Positions 1 to 41,113 of a stretch of 41,113 nucleotides of DNA are shown piece after piece. Source of the DNA: a virus (taxonomy: Duplodnaviria > Caudoviricetes); the IMG/VR virus record IMGVR_UViG_3300029787_000114, positions 1 through 41,113 of that record; one strand, written 5' to 3'. Each line of letters begins with the position of its first letter. Position 1 is the stretch's first letter. A model generated the notes under the pieces. The model searched no databases. It worked only from the letters and a program-made list of their open reading frames with translations, and was not told the origin of the DNA. A program made the translations under genes and the position numbers.

Positions 1-368
1 AACAGTAGAAAAAGCTATATTTAATAATGACTGTGTAAGACCATAATTAGCATATTCTCGTTGTTTTTGCATCAATATAGGAACTTCAAAAGCAGTAGAG
101 TATATTCCCATTGTTTTAGCGCCTCTATAAAATCTAGAAGTAGCAAGACCTGATCTTGCAACATTACCTAAAAATCCTGCCTTTGAGACAAAAGGTTCTG
201 GCGCAAATAAAAGAGCCGCATTTACAGGATCTACAAACGCAGAACCTAAAGTGGAAAAAAACATACCAAATTTTTGAAAACCAGAAGCGGACTGATATAT
301 TTGAGCCATTTCCATTTCTTCTATTTTTCTTTCATGAATAAGCTGCGCTTCTGTAACAGTCATTTCAC
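1..368. repeat. Left copy of the terminal overlap (imperfect copy of 40746-41113)
   Basis: Manual alignment gives 27 substitutions and no indels over 368 nt; positions 314-368 (55 nt) are identical to the contig end. Confidence 0.95.
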
Positions 369-708
369 GGTCAAAATTTATTTCACCACCAAGCCCATAT
401 GCTGAATTAAGCTCCGGTATACTCATTACTTCAGAAGACCTAGCTTCATCTAGCCCTGTAACAGAATTTCTATAAACGCCATCTGGATCCGTAAGAGTAT
501 CATGAAAATTATCTTGTATAAATCTAGAGATTGTAGACCTTTCTTCAAAAACGTCTCCTACAGGATCACTAAATGAAAGAAGTCTATAGTACTCGCCTTC
601 ATCCCAAGCTGCTGATAAAGCTTCGCGTGTGTCTATGCTTTGGTTAAGTGAGTCACCACCCGCAGACTTTATAAACTCATTGTCATCATATTGTTTTATT
701 CTAGCCAT
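1..708 (-). CDS. 5' part of an internal virion protein; continues across the circular junction into 39126-41108 (joined length about 775 aa)
   Basis: ATG at 708 (MARIKQYDDNEF...) lies 2 nt after the stop of the 711-2837 gene and is in frame with the ATG at 363 that matches the start of the 660-aa ORF. Absent from the ORF track because it runs off the edge. Confidence 0.85.
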   Translation of the reverse strand, partial: MARIKQYDDNEFIKSAGGDSLNQSIDTREALSAAWDEGEYYRLLSFSDPVGDVFEERSTISRFIQDNFHDTLTDPDGVYRNSVTGLDEARSSEVMSIPELNSAYGLGGEINFDREMTVTEAQLIHERKIEEMEMAQIYQSASGFQKFGMFFSTLGSAFVDPVNAALLFAPEPFVSKAGFLGNVARSGLATSRFYRGAKTMGIYSTAFEVPILMQKQREYANYGLTQSLLNIAFSTV

Positions 709-13601: not shown

Positions 13602-13612
13602 CCTGAACCATG

Positions 13613-13773: not shown

Positions 13774-13802
13774 TTAACAACAATAATTATTCGTTATACA
13801 AT
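13774..13802 (+). promoter_or_regulatory. Putative sigma70-type promoter P2
   Basis: TTAACA-17 nt-TACAAT. Confidence 0.65.
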
Positions 13803-13839
13803 AGTCCTGTAAGTTTAATTATACAAAAGTGAGGTGCTT

Positions 13840-14070
13840 ATGACACAAGCAGAGCTAGAAAAGCGTTTCAGTAGTATTTGTAATAAAAATCATTGGAAAG
13901 ACGAAGTACATAGCTTAGTTCTTAAAAAAGATTTTGACGAGTATAATAAAGCAGTAATTCATTTTACTGGCGGTAGTTTACAAATATTATCGGAAATACC
14001 GATGGAAAGTAGTGGTGTTACAGTTCTCGAAGTTTATTCGGAAGGCTACTGGTACCACATTGGAAGTTAA
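13840..14070 (+). CDS. Hypothetical early protein, 76 aa
   Basis: GAGGTGCTT-ATG start at 13840; ends in YSEGYWYHIGS. Confidence 0.8.
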   Translation: MTQAELEKRFSSICNKNHWKDEVHSLVLKKDFDEYNKAVIHFTGGSLQILSEIPMESSGVTVLEVYSEGYWYHIGS

Positions 14071-14088
14071 CTAAAAGCGGAGGTGCTT

Positions 14089-14190
14089 ATGATGATGTTT
14101 TTTATAATAGGTTTTTACATGGGAGTTATGTTCACAGCGATGGGTTTACTCATCTACATGCATCATAACGATATGAAACAATACACTTAG
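14089..14190 (+). CDS. Membrane micro-protein, 33 aa (MMMFFIIGFYMGVMFTAMGLLIYMHHNDMKQYT)
   Basis: GGAGGTGCTT-ATG; one hydrophobic segment; its TAG stop overlaps the next RBS. Confidence 0.7.
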   Translation: MMMFFIIGFYMGVMFTAMGLLIYMHHNDMKQYT

Positions 14191-14199
14191 GAGGTGCTT

Positions 14200-14334
14200 A
14201 TGACACAAGAAGAGCTAGAAATAATTAAGAACAAAGTGGATGACTTAGGTTGGGACTTCCACAGACTTAGTGAAGGTGGCCAAGAAGTTTACGTAGAAAT
14301 ATGTAGACTACTTGGTTGGAAATTTGAACATTAG
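14200..14334 (+). CDS. Hypothetical micro-protein, 44 aa (MTQEELEIIKNKVDDLGWDFHRLSEGGQEVYVEICRLLGWKFEH)
   Basis: TAGGAGGTGCTT-ATG; manual translation. Confidence 0.75.
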   Translation: MTQEELEIIKNKVDDLGWDFHRLSEGGQEVYVEICRLLGWKFEH

Positions 14335-14343
14335 GAGGTGCTT

Positions 14344-14505
14344 ATGCGACATTTAAGTGTTATTAGCTTCTTGCTAGGCTTTATTATGGTAGCAGGAGTT
14401 ATGGGTCACATCGAAAATACAATAGACATCGACTGGTCTAGAGTATGGATATGGGCTGGCGCAGGCTACATGTTTATGTGGCTTGGCGTAAAGAGTATGG
14501 AATAG
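14344..14505 (+). CDS. Membrane micro-protein, 53 aa, two hydrophobic segments
   Basis: TAGGAGGTGCTT-ATG; MRHLSVISFLLGFIMVAGVMGHIENTIDIDWSRVWIWAGAGYMFMWLGVKSME. Confidence 0.7.
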   Translation: MRHLSVISFLLGFIMVAGVMGHIENTIDIDWSRVWIWAGAGYMFMWLGVKSME

Positions 14506-14514
14506 GAGGCGTTT

Positions 14515-14610
14515 ATGTTAGTAGGTGAAATATTACTTACAATATGTGTAGTGGCAATAATTATACTTGCAGTTTATTTATTTATTGCCAGCTACCCTAG
14601 AGATTATTAA
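14515..14610 (+). CDS. Membrane micro-protein, 31 aa (MLVGEILLTICVVAIIILAVYLFIASYPRDY)
   Basis: TAGGAGGCGTTT-ATG; single hydrophobic segment. Confidence 0.65.
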   Translation: MLVGEILLTICVVAIIILAVYLFIASYPRDY

Positions 14611-14614
14611 AACT

Positions 14615-14672
14615 ACTATATTTAGAATATCTGATCTTGGCGGTATACTTATCGGATATTCTATTATATAGT
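14615..14672 (+). promoter_or_regulatory. Putative promoter P3 inside a long inverted repeat
   Basis: TATACT (14644)-17 nt-TATAGT (14667); arms TAGAATATCTGAT (14623-14635) and ATCGGATATTCTA (14651-14663) are 12/13 complementary. Confidence 0.6.
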
Positions 14673-14751
14673 GAGCTTGATGGTAAATTTATATTATCAT
14701 CGATTTATTACAACTTAATTATTTTACAATCACGTACCATAGGAGGTGCAT

Positions 14752-15138
14752 ATGAGTAAAAAAAGCGTAAGCTACGTTTTTAACGTAGATGCTAATTACG
14801 ATAAAGCAACACCGCAGGTCAAGCAGATCTTAAAAGGCGTTGCAGACAGTAAGAAGCATACATTCACATTAGCGGAGATGAAAGAGTTCATCGCTAAGTT
14901 ATCAAACGATGGTTTTTTGGTTACAACGCAAGTTCCATGGCGTATCTTCCAATATTATAGACAAAGCATGATCGACAATGACTTTATGTCTCAACGTAAT
15001 GACGAGTCTATAGAAGATGTGTTGCCTGCAAATGCAAGTAAGGCAAAAGTTGCAAAGCACGCTGTAAACAAGCTATTCGATAGCAAGAAGACTGTTGTGA
15101 AGCGTAAAAATAAGCCCGCCCCGGCTATCCACATTTAG
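14752..15138 (+). CDS. Hypothetical early protein, paralogue 2, with a Lys-rich tail
   Basis: AGGAGGTGCAT-ATG at 14752; YVFNV...TTQVPWRIFQYY motif. Confidence 0.85.
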   Translation: MSKKSVSYVFNVDANYDKATPQVKQILKGVADSKKHTFTLAEMKEFIAKLSNDGFLVTTQVPWRIFQYYRQSMIDNDFMSQRNDESIEDVLPANASKAKVAKHAVNKLFDSKKTVVKRKNKPAPAIHI

Positions 15139-15153
15139 TACTGTGGTAAAATT

Positions 15154-15182
15154 AAGGACGTCATTTTGGCGTCCTTTTTTTT
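15154..15182 (+). terminator. Rho-independent terminator
   Basis: AAGGACGTCA-TTT-TGGCGTCCTT followed by a T-run. Confidence 0.85.
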
Positions 15183-15350
15183 ATTACTATATAGAGAACT
15201 TTGTAGTTTTTTTATTTTTTTTCAGCTAAAGTTACCAATAGACTAATACATTTACTTAATCGATGGTTTAAGACCTTGTTTTATATATATTTCTGATGTA
15301 TTGGACCTATATATTGGTATTAAAATAGTGGCAATAAAGATCAATACAGT

Positions 15351-15381
15351 TGTACCCTGCAAAATTATTCTATTATATAAT
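15351..15381 (+). promoter_or_regulatory. Putative promoter P4
   Basis: Perfect TATAAT at 15376 in the shared context TATTCTATTATATAAT; weak -35. Confidence 0.5.
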
Positions 15382-15411
15382 GAATCATAGTTCATTCACC
15401 GGAGAAACTTG

Positions 15412-15495
15412 ATGAGCAATTTTAAAGGTTTATTGCTGGTGTTATGTTCTTACGTGATCTACGCAGTAGTTATGTATTTGATAGCCATTGTGTAG
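15412..15495 (+). CDS. Putative membrane micro-protein, 27 aa (MSNFKGLLLVLCSYVIYAVVMYLIAIV)
   Basis: GGAG upstream; hydrophobic; lies between P4 and the DUF932 gene. Confidence 0.45.
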   Translation: MSNFKGLLLVLCSYVIYAVVMYLIAIV

Positions 15496-15525
15496 ATAAT
15501 TATAATTTACCAGAGAGGTAGAGAT

Positions 15526-16482
15526 ATGACAGCTAATGTTGAAAATATGGCATACGCTGGAAAAGTACCATGGCACGGCCTTGGAACCAAGGTCTCCGAG
15601 ACGATCACTCCTGACGAAATGCAAATAGCAGCAGGTCTTGATTGGGAAGTTAATAAAACTCCCTTCATGAATCCTATTACTAAGGCAGAGTCAGAAGACT
15701 GGTCTATGCTCGTCAGAAGTTCAGACGGCAAGGAGTTTGGTCCATGTGGCAAGAAGTATGTACCGGTACAAAATAGGGACGCCCTTGGTTTTTTTAAGAA
15801 GTTCACAGAGTCAGGTAAGATGCAGTTAGAGACAGCTGGTTCGCTTGACGGTGGTAGACGTGTGTTTGTTCTAGCAAAGACAACTCAATCATTTCGCTTA
15901 GCTAAAGCTAAGGACGATAAGGTTGATTCGTACTTGTTTTGTTATCATCCACACATCTGGGGACAATCTTTAAAAGTCATGTGGACCCCGATCCGCGTAG
16001 TATGTCAAAATACTCTCATGCAGGCTCTTGGAAGTAAAAGTGCAGAATTTCGTATGCCGCACGTTACTGAGTTCAATGCTGATATGCAATTTAAGGCCGA
16101 AAGTGCTTTAGGTCTTGCAGACGAGCAAATGAAACAGTTCCAAGATACAGCTGAGATTTTATCGATGACAGAGTTTACCGATCAGAAGCTATGGAGATAC
16201 TGGGCGTCTTTATTCCAGCCTTCATTAGTCAATGAGAAGAAGATAACTCCGGATATGTTTAATAGAACCATGGAGCACATGAATGTATTGCTACATAAGC
16301 AGCCAGGCGCTGAATATGCTAAAAATACATGGTGGCAGGCATTAAATACTGTTACTTACTATGTGGACCACAAGTCAGGTAGGGAGCGTGATGCTACCAT
16401 GACCAGCTCGTGGTTAGGTCAAAAGGGCGCCGTTAAGCGAAAAGCTTTGGCACAGGCTACTCAACTAGCACGCGCAGCTTAG
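15526..16482 (+). CDS. DUF932-family phage/plasmid protein
   Basis: MAY.G.VPWHGLG, AAGLDWEV, Y.PVQN, ETAGSL.GGR.V and TPIRVVC.NTL motifs. Confidence 0.88.
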   Translation: MTANVENMAYAGKVPWHGLGTKVSETITPDEMQIAAGLDWEVNKTPFMNPITKAESEDWSMLVRSSDGKEFGPCGKKYVPVQNRDALGFFKKFTESGKMQLETAGSLDGGRRVFVLAKTTQSFRLAKAKDDKVDSYLFCYHPHIWGQSLKVMWTPIRVVCQNTLMQALGSKSAEFRMPHVTEFNADMQFKAESALGLADEQMKQFQDTAEILSMTEFTDQKLWRYWASLFQPSLVNEKKITPDMFNRTMEHMNVLLHKQPGAEYAKNTWWQALNTVTYYVDHKSGRERDATMTSSWLGQKGAVKRKALAQATQLARAA

Positions 16483-16498
16483 GACCGTCATGGAAGAC

Positions 16499-16643
16499 AC
16501 ATCTCTACGCGGTATCGGGGATGTAAAATAAAAGATACCGCACTTAGCGTCAGGGGGACCACCAATATGGAGCCGAGTCCTTAAACTGCTGAAGGCTATC
16601 AGACCAGGATTTAATTGCCTGGACGTACCCTGACTGCTATTTT
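16499..16643 (+). ncRNA. Candidate structured RNA: H-type pseudoknot plus four-way junction
   Basis: ACATCTCT/GGGGATGT and GCGGTATC/GATACCGC interleaved; then TAGC-GTCAGGG / CCCTGAC-T-GCTA closes three hairpins. Confidence 0.55.
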
Positions 16644-16665
16644 ATTATAAGGGTATACTTGGCTG

Positions 16666-16694
16666 TTCACAGCAATAAATATCCGTTATATAAT
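16666..16694 (+). promoter_or_regulatory. Putative sigma70-type promoter P5
   Basis: TTCACA-17 nt-TATAAT. Confidence 0.75.
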
Positions 16695-16716
16695 AGTACA
16701 GTAACCAGGAGGTATT

Positions 16717-16779
16717 ATGGAACAACTTATATTATTAGTAGTTATAGTGTGGCTTGTATGGCGCGCTGTCAATGCCTAG
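16717..16779 (+). CDS. Membrane micro-protein, 20 aa (MEQLILLVVIVWLVWRAVNA)
   Basis: AGGAGGTATT-ATG; its TAG stop overlaps the next AGGAGG. Confidence 0.6.
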   Translation: MEQLILLVVIVWLVWRAVNA

Positions 16780-16788
16780 GAGGTGTTT

Positions 16789-17103
16789 ATGAAAGAAGAT
16801 TTTAATGCAACAGCACTGACCCGTATATATTATACGGAAGTGCACTTAAAGGAGTTACGCTCACAAGAGCACGATTCTAGTGTGTTAGCCGATAAGTTCG
16901 GCATACGTGTAGACCACGTCATTTATGACCAAAACTCTATGCCATTTGGCATTAGATTCAGCGGTCCGATGTACATGCTACGCAATTTACTAGCCGTATT
17001 ATGGCAAGCAGATCCTAAAAATCACGTGGGATTCGATCCAAAAACTATTGACGATAGAATACACTACAAAGTACAGGAGGTGACACATGGCAGAGTATTA
17101 TGA
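16789..17103 (+). CDS. Hypothetical protein
   Basis: TAGGAGGTGTTT-ATG at 16789; open frame. Confidence 0.75.
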   Translation: MKEDFNATALTRIYYTEVHLKELRSQEHDSSVLADKFGIRVDHVIYDQNSMPFGIRFSGPMYMLRNLLAVLWQADPKNHVGFDPKTIDDRIHYKVQEVTHGRVL

Positions 17104-18148: not shown

Positions 18149-18405
18149 CGGGCCCTGATAAGAGAGACGTTGAGGAATCTAATATAAGGTTTCCTATCAC
18201 AGACGTAAAAAACACTTGTATCAAGATAGACGGCAAGATATATACAAGTGTTGGAGATTATACGGCAAGTAATACGTATGACTCAGATACAACAGGTTCA
18301 GATACAACAGGTCTTGGATTAGGTTATTATGCGCATAAGAGAGACGAAAGATTTAATTACACAGAGAGGAAAGAGTATGGCAAACGCAAGAGGAAAGGAG
18401 ATTGA
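18103..18405 (+). CDS. Hypothetical protein, 100 aa
   Basis: Fills the gap before the methyltransferase; contains an in-frame 15-nt duplication (SDTTG twice); overlaps both neighbours. Confidence 0.45.
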   Translation: MESRKNNRSKKDPRLTGPDKRDVEESNIRFPITDVKNTCIKIDGKIYTSVGDYTASNTYDSDTTGSDTTGLGLGYYAHKRDERFNYTERKEYGKRKRKGD

Positions 18406-19243
18406 CAATACCGACTTAAGTATTGATCAAGCAGAGGTCCGAGGTTTTATACACAGGGACTACATAGCACATTGTTTACGTTGGACACACGTAGCACAAT
18501 ATCTAAACGCAAAGCAAAGGTATAAGAAAGCCAATATATTAGATATAGGTTGTGGTAAGGACATGCCACTAGCTAGAATGCTTATGACAAGTAGACTAGC
18601 ACCAAAGATGTATTTAGGTTTCGAGTACAATAAGATGGATATACCTAGTATGTTTGACAACACAACGTTTAAACCTGACGTTATCTCAGGTCAAGACTTT
18701 ACGAAATACCCACCTCCACCACCTCAAGGTGCTGTATTTAATTATACAGTATGTTTCGAGGTCCTTGAGCATGTAGAACCACTTACAGCGATTGAGATAC
18801 TTAAAAAAGTTTATCTATGGACGCAGCCAGGTACTATATCATGGTGGAGTACACCGTGTTGGGACGAGAAAGTAGGCGCTGCTAAAAACCACGTTAATGA
18901 AATGACATATGAAGCAGTAGGATCTATGTTAGAGCATTGTGGCTATAAGATTCATAATCATTGGGGTACGTTTGCTTCAATTAAAGATTATAAAAAACAC
19001 CTTATTGAATGTGGCTATGGTGACTTGTTTGAACGATTAAGGTCTTATTATGACGTAAACTATTTAGCTACAATACTTGCACCACTTTGGCCGCAGTATT
19101 CTAGAAACGCTATTTGGGAAACAGAGTACGTAGGAAAACTAACTAATGAAGAGCGTTTGTTCCCACCTATAAGTAAGCTAGAGGGTAGATTAGGTTCTTC
19201 AGAAAAATGGAGGGATTTACTAACATGCGAAAATCAAGAATAA
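18377..19243 (+). CDS. Class I SAM-dependent methyltransferase (small-molecule type)
   Basis: ILDIGCG motif I, CFEVLEHV, STP...NHVNE; no DPPY/NPPY or PC motif of DNA methyltransferases; start moved to the ATG after AGAGAGG. Confidence 0.85.
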   Translation: MANARGKEIDNTDLSIDQAEVRGFIHRDYIAHCLRWTHVAQYLNAKQRYKKANILDIGCGKDMPLARMLMTSRLAPKMYLGFEYNKMDIPSMFDNTTFKPDVISGQDFTKYPPPPPQGAVFNYTVCFEVLEHVEPLTAIEILKKVYLWTQPGTISWWSTPCWDEKVGAAKNHVNEMTYEAVGSMLEHCGYKIHNHWGTFASIKDYKKHLIECGYGDLFERLRSYYDVNYLATILAPLWPQYSRNAIWETEYVGKLTNEERLFPPISKLEGRLGSSEKWRDLLTCENQE

Positions 19244-19599
19244 CATATGACGTAGCAAAATTCCATGAGAAGATGCTATTAAAATATGATGGTCCACCTA
19301 GACAATTAGAAGAAGATATTACTAGGTCTAGGATAGGTCATCTACAAGAAGAACTTAATGAGTTCCATGCCGCACTTATCTATGATAAAGGTTTACCTGA
19401 AATGCTAGACGCTTTAGTAGATATTGTTTATGTTGCAATAGGAACTTCTTATTTAATGGGTTTAGATTTTGATGAGGCTTGGCGTAGAGTTCATGAAGCT
19501 AACATGAAGAAAATACCCAAAGCTACTAAAAGATCTAAAATAGATGTTGTTAAACCAAAAGGCTGGGTAGCACCAGATTTAAAAGATTTATGCCGATAA
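19207..19599 (+). CDS. MazG-like / PRA-PH all-alpha NTP pyrophosphohydrolase
   Basis: LQEELNEF, EMLDALVDIVYVA.G, VHEANMKK and KP.GW.APD motifs; start may be 19225. Confidence 0.88.
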   Translation: MEGFTNMRKSRITYDVAKFHEKMLLKYDGPPRQLEEDITRSRIGHLQEELNEFHAALIYDKGLPEMLDALVDIVYVAIGTSYLMGLDFDEAWRRVHEANMKKIPKATKRSKIDVVKPKGWVAPDLKDLCR

Positions 19600-20588
19600 T
19601 AGTATTAGATGGCCCAGACGCAGTAGGTAAAACTACGCTTGCTAAAGCCTTTGAAAAACGATACAGAAATGTAAAGTATATTCATCTAGAATATAGATGG
19701 TCAAACAAGATGTTTCACTATCACACAGCAGCTTTTAAAAGAGCTCTTAAATGGTCGAGACAAGGTTTTATTGTAATCATAGATAGGTGGTGGATGAGTG
19801 AGTCCTGTTATGCTAAAGCATATAGAGGAGGATCTGCCTGGCCTATGCATGGCCGGTTTTTAACTAGGCTAGGACTAACACACAGTGTAGTTTATGTCAT
19901 GTGCTTACCTGATATGTTTACATTAGACGTATTTGATAAAATGAAGAGAGAGCGCAATGAACAGTATGATGACATTAAAAAGGTATGTGATTTGTATAGT
20001 CAATTATATTTCGGTGACCAATCTCATACGGAAACAGGGGACTATATTGACCAAGTTATTAAGCTAGGCGGATATATGAGAGCTTCTTATGTTATGCCAT
20101 ACAGTATACAAAACTGGGGAAGCCCAGCTCTTATGAATTGCTTTGTAGATCTTGTTTTACAACGATCAGAAGAAATGAGACAGGATCAGTTTGACGCTGT
20201 TATGACAAGTGATAATTTTTTAGGCCACAGGAAGTTTGCTAATTACTTATTAGTAGGTGAGCAAGTGAATCCTAAATTTAGAGATGTTAAATGGCCTTTT
20301 TTTGAGTACGGTAACTCAAGTCTATTTTTGACTAGCACATTACACGACCTATGGGTTAAGGAAGATAGTCTTGCATTCACTAACATTAGAGATGCCAATG
20401 GAAATGTAGATACAGAGTTTATAAGATTATGTAGTGAAGATAAGATTATCATTGCACTAGGTAGTGAAGCAAAAAACATTATGAAGAGAAGAGGATTTAC
20501 GTGTGACTACCACATAAAGCATCCGTCATGGTATAAACGATTTAACAGTAGTGAATTTAAAGAAGACTTGGAGGATATAATATGCTAG
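19590..20588 (+). CDS. dNMP (thymidylate-type) kinase fused to a UDG-superfamily domain
   Basis: N-terminal GPDAVGKTT P-loop and IIDR...SE..Y; C-terminal LLVGEQ....WPF, FTN, IIALG..A and HPS. Confidence 0.8.
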   Translation: MPIIVLDGPDAVGKTTLAKAFEKRYRNVKYIHLEYRWSNKMFHYHTAAFKRALKWSRQGFIVIIDRWWMSESCYAKAYRGGSAWPMHGRFLTRLGLTHSVVYVMCLPDMFTLDVFDKMKRERNEQYDDIKKVCDLYSQLYFGDQSHTETGDYIDQVIKLGGYMRASYVMPYSIQNWGSPALMNCFVDLVLQRSEEMRQDQFDAVMTSDNFLGHRKFANYLLVGEQVNPKFRDVKWPFFEYGNSSLFLTSTLHDLWVKEDSLAFTNIRDANGNVDTEFIRLCSEDKIIIALGSEAKNIMKRRGFTCDYHIKHPSWYKRFNSSEFKEDLEDIIC

Positions 20589-21406
20589 ATAAAAAAGACG
20601 AATATAACTTAATAAGCAGATCAGCAAGTGAGCAATGGATCAAGCAGTTAAAAAAACTAATGGACGTAAGAAAGGCTTATGAGAAAAGTGATGAAGAATA
20701 TCCAAAGCTAAACACGTATGAAATTATAAATGCAGGCACAACAGTTAACATGGCAGAATGCATACTTAATGTGCCGCAAAGAGAGCTAGGATATAAATTT
20801 ATGGCTCAGGAAGCTTTAAATATATTGATCGGCCATAATCAAGTAAATGCTATTAGAAACTTTTCTCCAACAATAACAAATTATTCTGATGATGGATATT
20901 TTTTTAATGGCCACTACGGTCCTATGATAATTGACCAGTACACTTACATTGTAGATAAGCTAGTAGAAGATAATAATACAAGACAAGCTGTTGCTACAAT
21001 ATGGAGGCCTAATCCAAGAAATAGCAAAGATATTCCTTGCACAGTTAGCGTTCAATTTCTTATAAGAGGTAATAGGCTACACTGTGTAGACACAATGAGA
21101 TCAAGCGACATCTGGTTAGGATGGCCTTACGACATATTTAATTTTACTATGATGACAGCTTATGTATCTTGCTTGTTTGGTCTCAGGACTGGTGATAGAC
21201 TTCAACTAGGCAATTTATTTTTAAATGCAGGTAGCCAACATTTATATTTAAGAGACGTTGAAAAAGCAAATAAAGTCTTAGACAAGTATCTGCATTTTAA
21301 AGTTCCTCCTTTGCAGAAGATCAAGATTGAAGACTGGACATACCCAGCTGAAATACTTAATTGGCTATATGAAAAAGCGCAGACCGGAGATTTTAGTGAG
21401 AGTTGA
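20582..21406 (+). CDS. Thymidylate synthase homologue, probably dCMP-specific (methylase or hydroxymethylase)
   Basis: TRQAV, catalytic D.PC, MRSSDIWLGWPYD (Asp where ThyA has Asn), GS.HLY. Confidence 0.85.
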   Translation: MLDKKDEYNLISRSASEQWIKQLKKLMDVRKAYEKSDEEYPKLNTYEIINAGTTVNMAECILNVPQRELGYKFMAQEALNILIGHNQVNAIRNFSPTITNYSDDGYFFNGHYGPMIIDQYTYIVDKLVEDNNTRQAVATIWRPNPRNSKDIPCTVSVQFLIRGNRLHCVDTMRSSDIWLGWPYDIFNFTMMTAYVSCLFGLRTGDRLQLGNLFLNAGSQHLYLRDVEKANKVLDKYLHFKVPPLQKIKIEDWTYPAEILNWLYEKAQTGDFSES

Positions 21407-21839
21407 TGCTGAAAATTATTTTTTAAATATGGCTGAGCTAGTATCTATGAGAGGTACATGTTCAAGAAGACAGGTAGGCTGTATACTAGTAGACAAAAAT
21501 AATTTAGTATTAGCTACAGGATATAATGGAAATCCAAGAGGACATAAACACTGTATCGATAGTCCTTGTGATGGAGCTAAATTAAAAGGTACAGGATTAG
21601 GACTAGATATTTGTGAGGCAATACATGCAGAACAGAATGCATTGCTTCAATGTAAAGATGTAGATAAAATTAAAACAGCTTATATAACAGTAAGCCCTTG
21701 TATGACTTGCGTAAAGCTATTATTAAATACGTCATGTAAAGAAATAGTTTTTATGGAAGAATATATAGATAATAATAACCCGAAAAGGATGTGGCAAAAT
21801 GGCAAAAGAAAATGGACACACGCAGGAACCGTTATTTAA
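21327..21839 (+). CDS. dCMP deaminase family protein
   Basis: TC.RRQVG, TGYNG, HAEQNA and PCMTC zinc motifs; likely start 21369. Confidence 0.9.
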   Translation: MKTGHTQLKYLIGYMKKRRPEILVRVDAENYFLNMAELVSMRGTCSRRQVGCILVDKNNLVLATGYNGNPRGHKHCIDSPCDGAKLKGTGLGLDICEAIHAEQNALLQCKDVDKIKTAYITVSPCMTCVKLLLNTSCKEIVFMEEYIDNNNPKRMWQNGKRKWTHAGTVI

Positions 21840-33524: not shown

Positions 33525-36281
33525 CTATAATTCTGCGTCAAAATCTGCACCTAAACCAGCCATAGCAACATTTTGTTGCGTGCTTATACTGGCGTCATGG
33601 TTTAATCCATATCTAAAACCATTTTGTCCCATATTGCTAAAAACCAAAGTCGTAGTAGTACCAGAGCCACCAATCAACGCAATAAAGCCAACAGGATTTG
33701 CAGTAAGTGTTGGTGATACTCGCATTGTTCTTCTTAATTGTGGGGTTGGTTGTACTGTGGTAGCACTCGCAGCCTCGGCAGTTGGATTTAAACCATTTGC
33801 AGTATTATCGCCAATTACAAAATACCTATGACATCTTAATAAAGTATCATCATACATTTCATGTTGAAAAGAAGGTATAGTGGTTGAATCAAACTCACCC
33901 ACTTCCATTTGCATACCTGTAATTAGTATATTGTTAGATGTGCTATCGCTACAGTCAACTTGACCAACAGCTTGATTGGCTTGAGTATAACTTTCCCATG
34001 CAGTTGCAGCACTACCACTTGTATAGTTTGAACCTGCGGCAAACCAAAATTGTAAATTCATACCATGAGTGCTATCTATGTCAAATTCATTACCAGCCGT
34101 GTCAGCAGGGAAAGTAACTATTGCTTTAGTCCAAGTATTAGCTGAACTAATAGTATAAGTCTGCATACAATAACGAGTATTATGTGCATCATATAGACCT
34201 ACAACATGAGTACCTGTTTTTGGTGATTTGACCCATGCAGCACAAGTAATTTTTTTAGCACTTGAAGTTCCTTTATTAAATATACGCATGTCTTTTTTTT
34301 CAAAACGCATATTAACAAAAATAAAATCAGCAGCTTCTAAACTATCATTAGCCGTAGTACAATCTATTTTCATAGATTTAGAAAAACCATACCCTTCTGG
34401 CACATCAGAGTCTTGAGTAATCGTATAAGTGCCTGCATCATTAAGTCGCATATATATTCTGTCTAAAGTATAAGCAGAGCCAGTTTGTCCTGTAAATGAT
34501 GTACCTCTTTGTGCTACTTCCATACCACCATTAATAATTAATGGTTTTGCATTAGGTCTTAAAGGTGTTCCAAAACCTGTCGCTGTACCATTGTTGGTAA
34601 TGGTTGCTCCTGATGCAATATTAATGTCTGACCCGGAAAGGGCCGTAAAAGTATTTGCTGTAAATGTAAAGTCATCTGCACCTGCAATCTCAATATCTAT
34701 TTGGTCATCGGTTGGAGATGAAATAGTGGTATCACCGTCAGCATCTAAAACTAGGCCATCAGCTAAACCATTCATATCAATAAGATTGCCGTTGACATCA
34801 AGTGTGCCGCCTAGTTGTGGTGAGCTATCACCTGCTAAAGAAGTTAATGAGCCACCGCCTACTCCTAATTCTGATGCGTCTACCTTTTTCAATGCACTAT
34901 CTGTTGCATCAAAAAACATAATGTGGTCAGCACTTGCAATAGTTGCGTCTGTTAAACCACTAATAACCGTAGGATCTAAATGCTCTTCAGATACAGCGGC
35001 ATCGGCTATTTTTGCAGCAGTTATAGCATCAGCAGCTATTTTAGCTGTGGTAACTTGTGAATCAGCTATATGCGCTGTGTCTATTGAACCATCAGTATAA
35101 TGCTCAGAGTTTATTGCATCGTCTGCAATCTTTGCTCCTGTAACTGCATCAGCAGCTATTTTAGCTGTGGTTACATTACCATCTGTAATTTTAGCGGTAG
35201 TTACTGCAGCATCATTTATCTTCGCAGTTTCTACTGCGCTTGCTGCAATCTCTGCTGTATCAATAGCGTTGTCTGCCATTTTAGCATTAGTAATTTGACT
35301 ATCAGCAATATGAGCAGTATCTATACTACCATCAACGTAATGTTCAGAATCAATAGAATCATCTGCAATTTTTGCATTAGTTACGGCATCTGCGTTTATC
35401 ATTGCTGTTTCTACAGCGTTGTTTGCTATAGTAACTGCTCCTGTGTCTGCCATAGTAGCATCACCAGACATAACGTTATCAATCCACTTGGATGTACCTG
35501 TGTCATATAGTAACATAGCGCCGTCTGCCGCTGACGTAATGTTTACGTCATTCATTTCAGCTAATGTATCTTCCGTTAAAATAACAGCGTCTACATATGC
35601 TTTAATAGATTGTTGTGTTGCTAGTTTAGTGGCTGAGTTAGAAGCCATATTATCTTCATCAGCAATAGTAAAACCGTCAAACTGATTAAGTTCTGCTGTT
35701 GTTAAAGTACAACCGTCTAATATATTTAATTCAGCTTCTGTTGCTGTAACTCCTGACAGGGAAAATGTAGATGTTTCTAGTGCTGTTCCATCTGAATTAT
35801 ATAGGATCATTTTTCCTGCATTATCAGAATTTGCTGCAGCAGAAGGAAATATTGTACCGGTGCTACGCAGTCCTGTGCTTTGTCTATACTTAGGAGTTCT
35901 TTCTAGTTGCTCTTGTTGTTGCTGTACTTGTAAAGTTAATTTATCTAGCTGCTGTTCAAATGATGCAGCTGGAAATGCATCTCCCTCTATAACGTCTAGT
36001 TCTTGAGAAAGAGCTTGTATTCTAGTAATGTATATTTTATGTGTTGATGGTAAGTTATTGCTTAAAGTTACAGTAGCGCTATCATTGTTTGAAGCAACTG
36101 AGATACTATAGTCGTATGTACCGGATCCACCGGCTGTTTGTAAAGTTTCAACACCTGTAGCTATTACAACTGTATATACTTTTATATCTGAAGAAGCGTA
36201 TACTTTATATGGCCAAGCATATGCTGTTGTACTACCATTACCTGTATATGCTATATAACTATTTTGAGCTGATACTGTCAT
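33525..36281 (-). CDS. Tail fibre protein
   Basis: T7 gp17-like N-terminus (YTGNGSTT.Y), shaft of avt.aKia repeats, SPQLGG.LD.NG motif, C-terminal NG.M..AQRGTS...DR beta domain. Confidence 0.85.
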   Translation of the reverse strand: MTVSAQNSYIAYTGNGSTTAYAWPYKVYASSDIKVYTVVIATGVETLQTAGGSGTYDYSISVASNNDSATVTLSNNLPSTHKIYITRIQALSQELDVIEGDAFPAASFEQQLDKLTLQVQQQQEQLERTPKYRQSTGLRSTGTIFPSAAANSDNAGKMILYNSDGTALETSTFSLSGVTATEAELNILDGCTLTTAELNQFDGFTIADEDNMASNSATKLATQQSIKAYVDAVILTEDTLAEMNDVNITSAADGAMLLYDTGTSKWIDNVMSGDATMADTGAVTIANNAVETAMINADAVTNAKIADDSIDSEHYVDGSIDTAHIADSQITNAKMADNAIDTAEIAASAVETAKINDAAVTTAKITDGNVTTAKIAADAVTGAKIADDAINSEHYTDGSIDTAHIADSQVTTAKIAADAITAAKIADAAVSEEHLDPTVISGLTDATIASADHIMFFDATDSALKKVDASELGVGGGSLTSLAGDSSPQLGGTLDVNGNLIDMNGLADGLVLDADGDTTISSPTDDQIDIEIAGADDFTFTANTFTALSGSDINIASGATITNNGTATGFGTPLRPNAKPLIINGGMEVAQRGTSFTGQTGSAYTLDRIYMRLNDAGTYTITQDSDVPEGYGFSKSMKIDCTTANDSLEAADFIFVNMRFEKKDMRIFNKGTSSAKKITCAAWVKSPKTGTHVVGLYDAHNTRYCMQTYTISSANTWTKAIVTFPADTAGNEFDIDSTHGMNLQFWFAAGSNYTSGSAATAWESYTQANQAVGQVDCSDSTSNNILITGMQMEVGEFDSTTIPSFQHEMYDDTLLRCHRYFVIGDNTANGLNPTAEAASATTVQPTPQLRRTMRVSPTLTANPVGFIALIGGSGTTTTLVFSNMGQNGFRYGLNHDASISTQQNVAMAGLGADFDAEL
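34975..35450 (-). repeat. Roughly 10-aa repeat shaft in the tail fibre with a duplicated block
   Basis: ADDSIDSEHYVDGSIDTAHIADSQ versus ADDAINSEHYTDGSIDTAHIADSQ; GCATCAGCAGCTATTTTAGCTGTGGT occurs twice, 120 nt apart. Confidence 0.8.
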
Positions 36282-39124
36282 TTTATTTCCTCAATTAAGT
36301 TGTCTAATATTTCTTTTGGCGACCCGCCGCCTTGTGGTACAATATCAGAAGGACTAATTAATAAATCTTGATCTAGTTCTTTTTTCCTTCTTCGTTCCTT
36401 TTTAGTTAGCGTTCCTGGGTCTATCATCTCACTAATATTATACACTATAAAATAGTTTAGTAACATCTGCAGATAAAATAAATTTATTCCTGGAGTGTTT
36501 TGAGTTACTAGGTTTGCAGCTCCCTTTTTAATAGCTTTAGATTTACTTTCCTCTCTACCTGGTTTTGCCCCGTAGATTGTTCTTGAAAATAATTCCATAA
36601 TATCCGATATATTTCCTGCTGTAGGTCCTAAAAGTGATTCCCAGAATCCTCTATATTTCCACCACTCTCCTGCTAATATATCCCCGTAAAACGACATTCC
36701 ACCACCTTTGAGCATAGAATTTAATAATAGCTTTTGGTTGTGTAAAAAATTGTCTAAATTAGCTAGATCTTTAAATACCCTAGGCTCTCTTCCTTTTGTC
36801 ATATCTGTTAAGGCCAATGATATATATCCAAACAAAGTAAACCCAACTGTATATTTTGCTAGTCCTATTAAACTTGATTTTGCGGTAAACGCCTCTTTTC
36901 TAGTCCTAGCTCCATAACCATAAATCTCTCTTCCATGTACTTTACTAGTAATTGATATTAAGAAACTTTTAAACTTCATTAAATGCCTCATTGCTTCACC
37001 GGCTGCTGTACCTGGAGCTGTACCTAGATTCATAATAGATCTTTCATAAATTCCAGGTTGTGGTACACCGTAATCAGCTCTATCCTGAAAGTAACTATTA
37101 AACCTCTCGGATATTTGATTCCTAGCATTTTTTATTTGTCTTGCACTAATAGTTTTTCTTTGTGGATTTTTTGCTTTTAAATATCTAATCATAACTTCAT
37201 CTGGTAAAGAAAGTACTCTATCAGATACCATGAATGATTTCTTATCTAGTGTTATTATAGAGTTTGTTAAAATATTATCCCATTCTTCTTTTCCTAAATT
37301 ATATAGTAAAAGACTTCTAGTTGTTTCTGTTGGTAAATCTTTCCAATTTGTCTGTACACCTTTTTTATTAAACGCTTGTTTTGCCAGGTTTGCTGAAAGA
37401 ATATTTACCATTCCAACTCTGTGTCCATCTGTCCAAGCACTTAATAAGTTTAATTTAAAATAAAAAGCGCTTAATGACGATAACATTCCTGGCACATTAT
37501 CTGTGTCTCCAAATCTGCTATGAACTTCTCCAAGCATGCCATCTATTCCAATACCTAGTTGTCTTGCTATTTCACGTCTATTACTATTTTTTCCACCTCT
37601 TACCCTAACCAATGTTTCAAAGGGCGCCAACCATCTTTGTAGCGGGTGAACACCTTGGTATCTTAATTCTGCTACTTGAGCAGGTATGTCACCTGCAGCA
37701 GATATGGTAGCACCGCCTAATTTAGATAAGTCTTGCATAACTCTAACTGCTCTACTAACTTGAGCAGTAGTACCGGCTAATGAAGCAGAATGCCTTGTTG
37801 CACCAATGACGTCTAGCCATGCTGCTTGAAATATACTGAGTGTTAATATATCACCATCAGTTGGTTTTAAAAATCCAGGTCCACTCCATATATCTAATTT
37901 TTTTTCTTGAGCTAGTAAATTATCTAATACTTTATCTAATTTTTTCTTTTCTTTTGCATCAACTGCGCTTTCTAATTTATTAGATATTTCAGTTCTTTGT
38001 CTTTTTACTTTTGCTAGTTCTCTTTTAATTACCTTAATTAGCATATTCTCAGGGTTTGTTCCTAGTTTTTCAAGAAGTGCAATGCTTCTTGCCATAGATT
38101 CAATACCTGATAATACGTTACTATGAAGAGGGCCATGGCCATATTTGTCATTATATACTAATGCAGAGTCCGCATCTTTAAAATGAATTATCCTATGTTT
38201 TTTTGTTAGTCTTTTTGCTAAACTAGATCCTTTTGGAAGTAATCCTTCTATTGCTTGTGTAAGATCTGTATCAGTCCTCATATGCCTGCCACTAACAAAG
38301 TAATCCCAAATGCTTTTTAAAAATTTATCTCTGTCTAGATTAGTATTTAAGTCTTTAAATGTAGTATCAAAATCAAGTAACTCTTCTATATCTTTTTTCC
38401 ACGCCTCAAATCCTGCTCTTCTTATAGCCACAGAATTATGAGTTTGTCTCATTATATATCCTGGTAATTTTTTAATTAAAGCACCTGATATATTTGCTCT
38501 ATCTATTAAAGTGTCATTTATTTCAAATATTATCCTAGCTATTTTTTCAGCATTAGGGTTTTTACTTATTCCAGACTGTCCACCTGGTCTCATTTCAAAT
38601 AGCTCTAAGGCTATTTCTCTTTCTATTGACCCGCTTGAAAATAATGCTACTAGGTCAATACCATCATCTTGGCCTTCTTTATTTAACATAGATAATAATT
38701 TACCAACATATTGCCTGTGCAAACTTTGTTGTGATAAACCTACAGAATTTCTAGATCCTGGTGTTATACCCTGCTTACCTGTCAAAATTGATCTAATAGC
38801 AGTAGCTGAATTTTGTTGACCGCCACCTACTGGATCTAAATTATCAAACTCGTCTAAATATCTTATTAAATCTAGCTCTTTTTCTTTATTTATTATTGTA
38901 TGCTTTCTTTCAATAGCATTTGCAAGCAGCGCCTCTGTTTCTTCATCTTCAATATACTTTTTAATTTTTTGCTCAATACCACCTTCAGAATCTAAAAGTC
39001 TTTCATCTTTTACTTTTTTCTGTATTTCTCTCAGTATCTGTTTTTTTTCAGCTAGTGTAAGAGCATCTCCTATTGCTTTATTAATTATCTCAATACAATG
39101 ATCTGAACCTTTTTTCTTGGCCAT
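36278..39124 (-). CDS. Large internal virion (ejection) protein, 948 aa
   Basis: Helical protein with hydrophobic Gly-rich C-terminal segments (FKSF, KGREPR, GGG..FYGD, LLGPT.G); lies before the tail fibre. Confidence 0.7.
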   Translation of the reverse strand: MAKKKGSDHCIEIINKAIGDALTLAEKKQILREIQKKVKDERLLDSEGGIEQKIKKYIEDEETEALLANAIERKHTIINKEKELDLIRYLDEFDNLDPVGGGQQNSATAIRSILTGKQGITPGSRNSVGLSQQSLHRQYVGKLLSMLNKEGQDDGIDLVALFSSGSIEREIALELFEMRPGGQSGISKNPNAEKIARIIFEINDTLIDRANISGALIKKLPGYIMRQTHNSVAIRRAGFEAWKKDIEELLDFDTTFKDLNTNLDRDKFLKSIWDYFVSGRHMRTDTDLTQAIEGLLPKGSSLAKRLTKKHRIIHFKDADSALVYNDKYGHGPLHSNVLSGIESMARSIALLEKLGTNPENMLIKVIKRELAKVKRQRTEISNKLESAVDAKEKKKLDKVLDNLLAQEKKLDIWSGPGFLKPTDGDILTLSIFQAAWLDVIGATRHSASLAGTTAQVSRAVRVMQDLSKLGGATISAAGDIPAQVAELRYQGVHPLQRWLAPFETLVRVRGGKNSNRREIARQLGIGIDGMLGEVHSRFGDTDNVPGMLSSLSAFYFKLNLLSAWTDGHRVGMVNILSANLAKQAFNKKGVQTNWKDLPTETTRSLLLYNLGKEEWDNILTNSIITLDKKSFMVSDRVLSLPDEVMIRYLKAKNPQRKTISARQIKNARNQISERFNSYFQDRADYGVPQPGIYERSIMNLGTAPGTAAGEAMRHLMKFKSFLISITSKVHGREIYGYGARTRKEAFTAKSSLIGLAKYTVGFTLFGYISLALTDMTKGREPRVFKDLANLDNFLHNQKLLLNSMLKGGGMSFYGDILAGEWWKYRGFWESLLGPTAGNISDIMELFSRTIYGAKPGREESKSKAIKKGAANLVTQNTPGINLFYLQMLLNYFIVYNISEMIDPGTLTKKERRRKKELDQDLLISPSDIVPQGGGSPKEILDNLIEEIK

Positions 39125-39125
39125 C

Positions 39126-41108
39126 TTAATCCTCCCCGTTTAATACGCATTGAGTTATTGATTTTTTAGCTGCTGCTGTTGCCTTTGTCTTTGCTTGAGA
39201 TCTAAGTTGTGATTCTTCAAGGTCTCTCAGCATCGCTATGTCATCAGGCGACATAGTACCGTCTTCTGCCATAGCCTTTAGCTCTTCTTCAAATTCTTTT
39301 TTCATAGCTTTGTATGCAGCTTCTTCTTCTCTTAACTGAACTTCTAAAGAATCATCATCTATTTTTTGCACTTTTTCTCTCGCGTTTAATGCTCCTTCTT
39401 TAGCATTTGGCAACATAGTATCATCCATAAATTGATTTTTAGGATCTTTTTTATATGATTTACTTTTATCAATAACAGCATCTAAAGTAATAGCATCATC
39501 ACCTGATCTATTTACAAATACTTCAGCATCAACTTCAAGTCTTCTATTTTCACCTTTACCTCTCCACACTGCTTTTCTAATTCTTAAAGATGTATTTACG
39601 TCTAATATAATTTCCATTTCTTTCTTATTACCCATTATTAATTTTGTACCTCTTGGTACAAATATTTTTATTAATGCAGGAATTTTTTCTTTTTTACTAC
39701 TAGAAGCACTCGCTGTTCTTTCAGCAAATCTTAACGCTGTATTTTTATTTAAACTACCATTTAAGAATCCTTCAGTTTGTATTACTTTACCTACTAGTCC
39801 TTTTGCAGATTTTTTGTTGTTAACAATAGGCCCTGTAGGTTCTCCATGCACTTGAAAATGGCCTGCATTTTTACCTGTGTAAATTATTATATTTTCATCT
39901 AGCCCATCTGACTTTGCAATAGCATCTCTTAACAATTGTATTTGCTCTCTTATCTCGGCTATAGGCTGTTTTCCTTTACCTGGCTTATATGATTGACCTA
40001 GCACACGTTGCATATTAAAATTAAAGTCATCCCATCTTTGTATCACACTAACTTCTTCGGCAGTGAATTTACTGTTGTTAGCTTCTACTTTATCCATTAT
40101 AGATTTTGCTATTTTATCAACATCAGCAAAAGGTTTTTTATTTAAGATTTGTCTCTTACCTGTTTGAATGTCCATTTTAGATATTATTCCATCAGCTTCC
40201 ATTTGTCTAACCATGGCTGAAGCTTTGTTATATCCTATCTTAAATTCTTTTTGTAATTGAGTAATTATTTGCTTTGTATCTTTTGCTTTTAAAGTATACT
40301 TTACAGCAGAACCATACATTTCATCGGGAACAAGCTTATCTAAGTCTACTTTATTTTCTTCTAACTCAACTAAAGATTTTTTTTCACCTTTAACTTTTTT
40401 TTCAGATGAGACGTGATCCTCATTTAAAAGAACGTCATCAGATGCTTTATCTTTAGCTTCTGCAAGTTTTGAAGGACTATATTTAGGATCAAGCATTTTA
40501 TAAATAGGCTCGTAGTTTCCTACTCTTGTAGGACCTTGTCCTGGTAAATCAACTAATAGTCTTCCATCTGCTTTTGGTTTTGTTGCTGAATCATAAACTG
40601 CTCTAAACATTAAATCAACATTTATTGCTTTATCAGCTTGAGCTTGGTTATGGGCTAGAGATACTGTTGCATTAAAAGTTTCTCTATCTAGACCTTTAAC
40701 CATGTCTTTAACTTTACCACCACCTACGTGTAATCCACCACCAACAACAGTAGAAAAAGCTATATTTAACAGTGACTGTGTAAGACCATAATTAGCATAT
40801 TCTCGTTGTTTTTGCATCAATATAGGAACTTCAAAACCAGTAGAGTATAGTGCCATTGTTTTAGCGCCTCTATAAAATCTAGCAGTAGCAAGACCTGATT
40901 TCGCAACATTAGCTAAAAATCCTCCCTTTGAGACAAAAGGCTCTGGCATAAGTAAAAGTCCAAAATTTACAGGATCTACAAACGCAGAACCTAAAGTGGA
41001 AAAAAACATACCAACTTTTTGAAAACCAGAAGCGGCTTCATATACTTTAGCCATATCTATTTCTTCTATTTTTCTTTCATGAATAAGCTGCGCTTCTGTA
41101 ACAGTCAT
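39126..41108 (-). CDS. 3' part of an internal virion protein with FtsK-gamma-like and ADP-ribosyltransferase-like domains (true start at 708)
   Basis: DEMYGSAV...LQKEFKIGYNKASAMVRQMEADGIIS...GKRQIL; IIIYTG...GFLNGS...IFVPRG...EMEIIL. Confidence 0.8.
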   Translation of the reverse strand: MTVTEAQLIHERKIEEIDMAKVYEAASGFQKVGMFFSTLGSAFVDPVNFGLLLMPEPFVSKGGFLANVAKSGLATARFYRGAKTMALYSTGFEVPILMQKQREYANYGLTQSLLNIAFSTVVGGGLHVGGGKVKDMVKGLDRETFNATVSLAHNQAQADKAINVDLMFRAVYDSATKPKADGRLLVDLPGQGPTRVGNYEPIYKMLDPKYSPSKLAEAKDKASDDVLLNEDHVSSEKKVKGEKKSLVELEENKVDLDKLVPDEMYGSAVKYTLKAKDTKQIITQLQKEFKIGYNKASAMVRQMEADGIISKMDIQTGKRQILNKKPFADVDKIAKSIMDKVEANNSKFTAEEVSVIQRWDDFNFNMQRVLGQSYKPGKGKQPIAEIREQIQLLRDAIAKSDGLDENIIIYTGKNAGHFQVHGEPTGPIVNNKKSAKGLVGKVIQTEGFLNGSLNKNTALRFAERTASASSSKKEKIPALIKIFVPRGTKLIMGNKKEMEIILDVNTSLRIRKAVWRGKGENRRLEVDAEVFVNRSGDDAITLDAVIDKSKSYKKDPKNQFMDDTMLPNAKEGALNAREKVQKIDDDSLEVQLREEEAAYKAMKKEFEEELKAMAEDGTMSPDDIAMLRDLEESQLRSQAKTKATAAAKKSITQCVLNGED

Positions 41109-41113
41109 TTCAC
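40746..41113. repeat. Right copy of the terminal overlap
   Basis: About 93% identical to 1-368 (341/368). Confidence 0.95.

What the first reader, a model, noticed from the sequence alone, without database searches (positions are those of the whole stretch)
40143..40325. FtsK-gamma-like winged helix next to the ART domain
Seen: DEMYGSAV..(13)..QLQKEFKIGYNKASAMVRQMEADGIIS...GKRQIL closely follows the FtsK gamma pattern D.LY..AV...LQR..RIGYNRAA.....ME..GIVS...G.R.VL. Established: this domain reads KOPS motifs and activates XerD. Inference: an injected protein that could direct the ART to DNA, interfere with host segregation, recruit XerCD, or help orient genome entry.
Basis: partly seen in the sequence, partly recalled or inferred. 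Interest (0 to 1): 0.7.

Follow-up and report, generated by a model that had tools for sequence, protein, structure and literature searches.

The report
DNA-gripping domain in injected phage protein
A marine phage carries a small domain copied from the bacterial chromosome pump FtsK inside a protein it likely injects with its DNA; two of the three residues that read FtsK's guide sequences are gone, so it is predicted to be a general DNA grip for the neighbouring ADP-ribosylating-type domain, an unusual version of a theme already in print.

Summary
Observation confirmed. 40143-40325(-) is a true FtsK-gamma domain (Pfam 49 bits, cut-off 30.6; the model matches 2VE8 and 5DCF), placed just before an Alt/VIP2-fold ART domain. 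The protein is the orthologue of pelagiphage HTVC035P gp48, a probable ejection protein. KOPS reading is unlikely: R1300 and E1303 are A and R, and the genome shows no KOPS, no dif-like site and no integrase. XerD contacts are kept only conservatively (R1289 is K; 0 of 69 other viral gammas). In relatives this slot usually holds a kinase-like domain (23 of 26 ART-bearing homologues). Gamma occurs in 1 of 153 homologues, and a sister phage has a different winged helix there. The ART belongs to a clade lacking the strand-1 Arg and STS motif but keeping ExE, and looks conserved in strains. Best reading (0.45): a low-specificity DNA grip holding the ART at the entering genome; main rival: a drifting passenger (0.25). 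Motor-less gamma in virion proteins was described in 2017, and this scan noted it three times on other DNA. New here: the kinase-to-winged-helix swap beside a non-canonical ART.

The parts
40143..40325 (-). FtsK-gamma winged helix (ORF aa 263-323), no motor attached
   Evidence: Pfam PF09397 49 bits; PDB phmmer; model against 2VE8/5DCF
40224..40253 (-). Segment equal to E. coli FtsK 1288-1297, the XerD-contacting surface: 4 of 6 contact residues identical, R1289 and R1292 are K
   Evidence: alignment; contact table of PMC5052618
40197..40217 (-). Recognition helix: R1300 position is A, E1303 position is R (codon 40206-40208; T or S in other strains), E1306 kept
39516..40124 (-). Alt/VIP2-fold ART domain; T at the strand-1 Arg position, NGS at the STS motif, E-x-E kept
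   Evidence: Pfam PF03496; fold searches, best Z 19.1; motif columns
40638..41111 (-). Conserved N-terminal ejection-protein scaffold (PHROG 3003), second allele in the terminal overlap
1..708 (-). Start of the same gene at the other end of the circularly permuted contig; whole protein about 775 aa (P0001: 783 aa)
   Evidence: 368-bp terminal overlap at 93% identity; ORF; L003 links this allele to gamma-ART
39126..39480 (-). C-terminal helical tail ending in a Cys-containing motif shared across the family
   Evidence: alignments
36278..39124 (-). Next gene: 948-aa internal virion protein, orthologue of HTVC035P gp47
   Evidence: PHROG 684, weak PHROG 342 C-part

Best explanation
The gamma domain is likely a low-specificity DNA grip that would hold the adjacent ART-fold domain on DNA at the point where the phage genome enters the cell. 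Shown: it is a motor-less FtsK-gamma domain in the variable middle of an HTVC035P-gp48-type protein, it lacks two of three KOPS-reading residues, and it stands where relatives have a kinase-like domain or another winged helix. Inferred: the protein is packed in the head and ejected, and its N-terminal scaffold crosses the inner membrane like the first membrane segment of T7 gp16, so the cargo after it hangs in the cytoplasm at the channel exit. Inferred: the basic winged helix binds double-stranded DNA with little or altered specificity. Inferred, weakest step: the ART, as T4 Alt does, modifies or blocks DNA-bound host proteins (RNA polymerase, defence nucleases) in the first minutes of infection, using a remodelled active site.
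For: Gene order is identical to HTVC035P, where the orthologue is annotated internal virion protein. Relatives and gp48 match the T7-gp16-like PHROG 342 at profile 225-430, about where gp16 has its first membrane region, followed by a cytoplasmic DNA-binding part (PMC8954989 passages). The wHTH-ART proteins nest inside kinase-ART proteins (clade of 8, SH-aLRT 100, quick tree), so the kinase-like domain was replaced. P0002 has a domain in the same slot that resembles MarR/TrmB-type winged helices by predicted structure (TM 0.60-0.74) but has no sequence likeness to gamma (score 39; shuffles mean 32, 95th percentile 40): the fold class is kept while the sequence is not. Gamma's net charge is +4 against 0.0 +/- 1.8 for slightly longer cuts of 69 viral gammas. 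It is 82% identical to P0001, close to the scaffold's 86%, whereas linkers are 65-67%. The ART shows 10 silent to 4 replacement changes in one strain contig (binomial p 0.0007 against an assumed 27% silent) and keeps E-x-E in 25 of 25 aligned relatives.
Against: No binding or activity was measured. The ART lacks the strand-1 Arg and STS serine, as do all 9 members of its clade, so it may be non-catalytic. All 4 strain changes seen in gamma alter residues (0 silent; Fisher p 0.05 against the ART), which fits drift. Gamma sits on the longest internal branch (2.06 changes per site) of a 72-row, 66-column quick tree. The winged-helix-plus-ART layout rests on three sequence types only (window, P0001, P0002), and P0002's fold comes from a low-confidence Atlas model (mean pLDDT 0.49). 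The window's own protein did not match PHROG 342, and its hydrophobic peak is weak (1.33 in P0001). The host is unknown.
Confidence: 0.45

Rival explanations
1. Drifting passenger: a gamma domain replaced the kinase-like domain by recombination and is now decaying as a folded spacer; the ART-fold domain works alone.
For: 4 of 5 functional positions (R1289, R1297, R1300, E1303, E1306) differ; among 69 viral gammas 55 have none changed and the most is 3, in one. Long branch. 0 silent to 4 replacement strain changes, with three states at the E1303 position. P0002's unrecognisable winged helix could be the same domain further decayed; a short linker motif before the slot is shared by both.
Against: The hydrophobic core and IGYN motif are intact, with no indels or stops in the strains laid. 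Identity to P0001 is near scaffold level and well above linker level. Four changes are too few to show neutrality, and the rest of the protein outside the ART is also replacement-rich (3 silent to 15 in X6).
Confidence: 0.25
2. XerD activator or segregation jammer: the injected gamma binds host XerD and triggers untimely XerCD-dif recombination, which would tangle the chromosome and block division.
For: All six XerD-contacting positions are identical or R-to-K. KOPS-blind FtsK still activates Xer (PMC2680272). Isolated gamma activates XerCD-dif and gives topologically complex products (PMC3130261 abstract). A 9-residue peptide suffices when fused to XerC (PMC5052618).
Against: R1289, the critical salt bridge, is K here and R in 69 of 69 other viral gammas although the search pattern allowed K. 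The peptide is the family signature and also contacts DNA. No dif-like site and no integrase by eye or profile. P0002's domain lacks the peptide. A few membrane-tethered copies would rarely meet dif.
Confidence: 0.12
3. Protein-recognition module: the winged-helix surface has been repurposed to pick the ART's host protein substrate and changes fast in an arms race.
For: Gamma uses one surface for both DNA and protein (PMC5052618). The recognition helix is remodelled and polymorphic at one exposed position (R/T/S). The slot is 19% identical to P0002 while the ART is 63%.
Against: No partner is known. Positive charge fits DNA as well. Positive selection was not shown.
Confidence: 0.1
4. KOPS-type reader that orients phage genome entry or marks host KOPS sites.
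For: Family membership only. A host with a different guide motif cannot be excluded.
Against: R1300 and E1303 are replaced. 0 GGGNAGGG sites (0.9 expected). The best strand-skewed exact octamer has p 0.008, weaker than the median of 30 shuffles (0.004). No motor to steer.
Confidence: 0.05

Closest known systems
FtsK/SpoIIIE gamma subdomain (Pfam PF09397; PDB 2J5P, 2J5O, 2VE8/2VE9, 5DCF)
   Same: Profile above cut-off, same winged-helix fold, IGYN core, E1306 and most XerD contacts.
   Different: No motor. R1300 and E1303 replaced, R1289 and R1297 are K, two-residue insertion after helix 1. Sits in a phage virion protein.
Phage polyvalent proteins (Iyer et al. 2017, PMC5512222)
   Same: Multidomain, probably injected protein with interchangeable conflict domains. 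The paper lists the FtsK wHTH as a rare DNA-binding domain of such proteins, and ARTs and kinases as common enzymes.
   Different: [quoted passage not shown] The carrier is a mid-sized gp16-like ejection protein, with no LPD or peptidase domain detected by Pfam.
T4 Alt and virion-packed Alt/VIP2 ARTs, e.g. MuF-ART fusions (PMC9503650, PMC5512222)
   Same: Same ART fold, E-x-E, encoded among virion genes, probable delivery with the DNA.
   Different: Strand-1 Arg and STS motif replaced clade-wide, fused to a winged helix and to a podophage ejection scaffold.
Other motor-less phage gamma fusions: Sam46 small terminase (PMC8190038); RdgC, GapR, NA37, exonuclease and large virion-like proteins
   Same: Gamma reused as an accessory DNA-binding domain by phages; common (302 IMG/VR stretches).
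   Different: Those mostly keep R1300 (59 of 69) and E1303 (60 of 69); none of the 28 scanned is fused to an ART.
HTVC010P-type pelagiphage internal virion protein gp48 (HTVC035P)
   Same: Same gene order and N-terminal scaffold (32% over 198 aa to P0001).
   Different: gp48 is 489 aa and shows no ART, kinase or gamma match in PHROGs; the window phage also has an HTVC023P-like polymerase, so it is not an HTVC010P-type phage proper.

Membership tests
FtsK gamma domain (PF09397) | Profile score above the curated cut-off | tested here: met
   45-50 bits against 30.6
FtsK gamma domain (PF09397) | Three-helix winged-helix fold | tested here: met
   Model pLDDT 92-95; 2VE8 Z 9.5, rmsd 2.4 A, 64 residues; model leaned on a gamma alignment
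KOPS-reading FtsK gamma | R1300, E1303, E1306 in the recognition helix | tested here: not met
   A, R (T/S in strains), E
XerD-activating FtsK gamma | Q1288, R1289, R1292, I1293, G1294, N1296 | tested here: inconclusive
   4 identical, 2 R-to-K including the key R1289
FtsK gamma domain (PF09397) | Binds DNA or XerD | not testable with these tools
   needs gel shifts and a recombination assay
FtsK/SpoIIIE translocase | RecA-fold motor upstream of gamma | tested here: not met
   Pfam shows only gamma and ART in the window protein and in full-length P0001
Alt/VIP2 (R-S-E) ADP-ribosyltransferase | ART fold | tested here: met
   Pfam E 1e-10; VIA Z 17-19 to several R-S-E ARTs; Atlas 0.97
Alt/VIP2 (R-S-E) ADP-ribosyltransferase | Strand-1 arginine | tested here: not met
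   T here; R in 16 of 25 aligned relatives, absent in the 9 of this clade
Alt/VIP2 (R-S-E) ADP-ribosyltransferase | S-T-S motif | tested here: not met
   NGS or NAS in the same 9
Alt/VIP2 (R-S-E) ADP-ribosyltransferase | Catalytic E-x-E | tested here: met
   25 of 25
Alt/VIP2 (R-S-E) ADP-ribosyltransferase | NAD-dependent transfer activity | not testable with these tools
   needs an enzyme assay
Phage polyvalent proteins (Iyer 2017) | Several swappable conflict domains in one virion-context protein | tested here: met
   Slot holds kinase-like+ART, NUDIX, HYD-type ART, Zeta-like or PRTase-like domains across homologues
Phage polyvalent proteins (Iyer 2017) | ART of the HYD type (the paper excludes Alt/VIP2 ARTs from genuine members) | tested here: not met
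   ART is Alt/VIP2-type; works like a polyvalent protein, not filed as a strict member
T7-gp16-like ejection protein | Position after tail tube and gp14/gp15-like genes, before tail fibre | tested here: met
T7-gp16-like ejection protein | Sequence homology to gp16 membrane region | tested here: inconclusive
   PHROG 342 hit in 14 of 25 aligned members and in gp48, not in the window protein or P0001
T7-gp16-like ejection protein | Present in virions and ejected | not testable with these tools
   no proteomics for this family seen

The most novel reading that the evidence does not exclude
The NGS-type ART is an active enzyme with a rebuilt NAD pocket, and the winged helix feeds it nucleic acid: a membrane-tethered, DNA-guided ADP-ribosyltransferase that marks the phage genome as it enters (shielding it from restriction) or attacks host DNA, a new chemistry and a new job for podophage ejection proteins.
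Probability: 0.12. Interest if true: 0.78.

Novelty: new variant of a known kind. Interest (0 to 1): 0.38.

Why it matters
The role of motor-less FtsK-gamma domains in phages is unknown (stated in PMC8190038). This family gives a natural swap series in one slot (no cargo, kinase-like+ART, gamma+ART, other winged helix+ART), and the 290-residue gamma-ART fragment is small and predicted to fold well, so the question becomes testable. A conserved ART without two canonical motifs would extend the known chemistry of the family if active, or reveal a non-catalytic role if not. The gamma finding alone is an ordinary example of a published theme.

Tried and rejected
Single-sequence AlphaFold failed (pLDDT 36) and was not used. 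Word-index protein searches with the scaffold and with gamma alone returned only P0001: weak evidence. Locus scans found nothing for the scaffold or gamma-ART in viral contigs or for gamma in GTDB genomes, so no donor or host was identified; the gamma tree is unresolved (41 of 69 inner branches open, careful search unfinished). KOPS, SRS, dif-like and strand-skew scans were negative; the dif pattern is a recalled short consensus, and a divergent host dif would be missed. No Rfam hit. phmmer of the ART alone found no PDB hit; the profile and the model did. MAFFT forces gamma onto the last helices of the kinase-like domain; I rejected 'kinase remnant' because of the Pfam and PDB matches. P0002's cluster shows almost no variation, so it gives no selection signal. 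No complex prediction with XerD was sent: a pass would follow from likeness to 5DCF, with a stand-in host. Strain variation rests on one set of four runs only.

Full report
Setting. The window is a near-complete phage genome (virus record, completeness 100), found in marine runs. It has a podophage structural block (portal, capsid, tail tubes, internal virion genes, tail fibre), a capsid 58% identical to pelagiphage HTVC010P and a polymerase 42% identical to HTVC023P/027P. I saw no integrase by eye among the ORFs or in the 27 proteins scanned against PHROGs. The host is unknown. The contig ends overlap by 368 bp at 93% identity, so the gene of interest starts at 708-1 and continues at 41111-39126; about 775 aa in all (P0001: 783).

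Observation. Confirmed. Pfam FtsK_gamma matches 40143-40325 at 49 bits (cut-off 30.6), all 6 PDB sequence hits are FtsK gamma, and the model's best winged-helix matches are 2VE8 and 5DCF (the model used an alignment with 37 gamma rows). L003 (100%), P0001 (85%) and an X6 contig carry the same fusion.

Carrier. Gene order equals that of HTVC035P, whose gp48 is annotated putative internal virion protein and shares the N-terminal scaffold. gp48 and 14 of 25 aligned members hit the T7-gp16-like PHROG 342, at about profile 225-430 in the six whose coordinates I saw, and the next gene hits its 1047-1222 part weakly (E 0.002). This suggests a split gp16. In T7 gp16, residues 243-410 cross the inner membrane and the following part is cytoplasmic and binds DNA without sequence preference (PMC8954989, passages). 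That the cargo ends up in the cytoplasm at the channel exit is therefore inferred, not shown; the window protein itself did not hit PHROG 342.

The slot. The library search found 644 relatives and listed 150. With P0001, P0003 and P0004 I held 153, of which 151 have the scaffold. Gamma occurs in 1 of 153 (P0001), by Pfam and by a custom profile. An Alt/VIP2-type ART occurs in 26 of 151; 23 of these have a kinase-like domain just upstream, and all 23 kinase-like proteins have the ART (the profile was built from 21 of them). The kinase label rests on recalled HipA-type motifs seen in the alignment and weak Pfam hits only (HipA_2 in 4 of 25, best E 0.01). The three ART proteins without it are P0001, P0002 and the distant P0093. 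On the scaffold tree P0001 and P0002 nest in a clade with six kinase-ART proteins (SH-aLRT 100, quick tree of 30 chosen rows), so the kinase-like domain was replaced. P0002's slot looks like a MarR/TrmB-type winged helix by predicted structure (TM 0.60-0.74, low-confidence model) but is no more like gamma in sequence than shuffles are. Whether this is a second capture or one capture diverged cannot be told. Other homologues carry NUDIX (2), Zeta-like (1), ART-PolyVal (5, two above cut-off) or weak PRTase (4) matches.

Function of gamma. E. coli FtsK R1300A, E1303A, E1306A is KOPS-blind yet activates Xer (PMC2680272, passages). Here these positions are A, R and E; the middle one is T in P0001 and X6 and S in X2/X3. 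XerD contacts are Q1288, R1289, R1292, I1293, G1294 and N1296, with R1289 critical (PMC5052618, part 2 of 6 and Table 1); here R1289 and R1292 are K, the rest identical (P. aeruginosa also has K at 1292). As background, a pattern scan of IMG/VR gave 302 gamma stretches, of which the best 80 were kept and 69 were distinct; none of the 80 ORFs showed a motor P-loop in the 3 kb flanks held. R1289 is R in 69 of 69, R1300 in 59, E1303 in 60. Over five positions, 55 have no change and one has three; the window has four. The pattern fixed positions 1288, 1292-1296, so these say nothing. The genome has no GGGNAGGG, no excess of a dif-like pattern (3 found, 5.5 expected) and no unusual octamer skew. 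Isolated gamma can activate XerCD and yield tangled products (PMC3130261, abstract), so that rival remains possible.

The ART. The fold is clearly of the R-S-E class (Z up to 19.1). Of 25 aligned members, 16 keep the strand-1 Arg; the other 9, including the window, lack it, read NGS or NAS at the STS motif, and form one clade (SH-aLRT 98). E-x-E is in all 25. One strain contig differs by 10 silent and 4 replacement codons in the ART, against 0 and 3 in gamma and 3 and 15 in everything outside the ART (Fisher p 0.05 and 0.003; from 37 of that contig's 38 differences, as the table was cut). So the ART is conserved despite the lost motifs: either a rebuilt enzyme or a binding module. E-x-E is typical of arginine-modifying protein ARTs (recalled), which argues for a protein rather than a DNA target.

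Mechanism. Most likely (0.45) gamma is a low-specificity DNA grip that keeps the ART-fold domain on the entering genome or nearby nucleoid, where it acts like T4 Alt on DNA-bound host proteins. Identity, residue losses and the swap are shown; ejection, topology, DNA binding and activity are inferred. Rivals: drifting passenger 0.25, XerD activator 0.12, protein-recognition module 0.10, KOPS reader 0.05.

What is known. Iyer et al. 2017 list the FtsK wHTH as a rare DNA-binding domain of polyvalent proteins and say Alt/VIP2 ARTs are not in genuine ones (PMC5512222, passages and section 9). Virion-packed Alt/VIP2 ARTs are common (PMC9503650, passages and section 27). Gamma is fused to a small terminase in Sam46, and the role of phage gamma genes is called unknown (PMC8190038, passages). 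R-S-E motif roles: PMC7919650, passages. PMC10386132 and PMC12014285 (passages) gave nothing used. Gamma also sits in large virion-like proteins L015, L024, L028 and L033. Three earlier notes of this scan report gamma in ejection proteins of other phages. The search listings showed no paper on a gamma-ART fusion, on this kinase-ART ejection family or on the NGS-type ART; supplements and the FTP architecture lists of the Iyer papers were not seen and may hold such cases.

Verdict. A real feature and a new variant of a known kind. The gamma domain alone is ordinary; the swap series and the conserved non-canonical ART make it a useful test case. Interest 0.38.

Noticed in passing
window 1-368 and 40746-41113: The terminal overlap holds two alleles of the scaffold's hydrophobic region that differ by 18 replacement and 3 silent codons; not significantly above neutral (p 0.14) but unlike the ART, possibly diversifying selection on the membrane-crossing part.
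   Followed up: partly
P0003-P0016 and others; L001 5635-8601: A kinase-like domain and an Alt/VIP2 ART are strictly coupled in this ejection-protein family (23 of 23); the kinase-like part also matches proteins annotated ADP-ribosyltransferase in Pseudomonas, Aeromonas and Yersinia phages. A mobile kinase-ART cassette worth its own study.
   Followed up: partly
window 39516-40124; P0001-P0003, P0005, P0006, P0008, P0009, P0040: A clade of ARTs that lost the strand-1 Arg and STS motif together yet stays conserved.
   Followed up: partly
window 18329-21839 (+): Cluster of methyltransferase, MazG-like pyrophosphatase, nucleotide kinase with an extra C-terminal domain (uracil-glycosylase-like by eye, recalled), thymidylate-synthase-like and dCMP deaminase genes: possibly a DNA base-modification pathway, which could let a DNA-binding domain tell phage from host DNA.
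   Followed up: no
window 13295-16799 (+): Early genes share a strong Shine-Dalgarno-plus-start repeat (6 copies) and follow an AT-rich inverted repeat at 12996-13145; strong ribosome-binding sites may hint at a host other than SAR11 (recalled expectation, untested).
   Followed up: no
L015, L024, L028, L033: Large (over 1000 aa) virion-like proteins with an intact-looking gamma domain, two with an L,D-transpeptidase-like and one with a helicase-like domain.
   Followed up: partly
L050, L063, L072, L076, L025: Motor-less gamma fused to DEDD exonuclease-BRCT, GapR, NA37 and a DUF5906 domain in viral contigs.
   Followed up: no
whole window: Mosaic genome: HTVC010P-like structural module with an HTVC023P-like polymerase, primase and two helicases; closest record for the capsid and second for the polymerase is MW202510.1.
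   Followed up: partly
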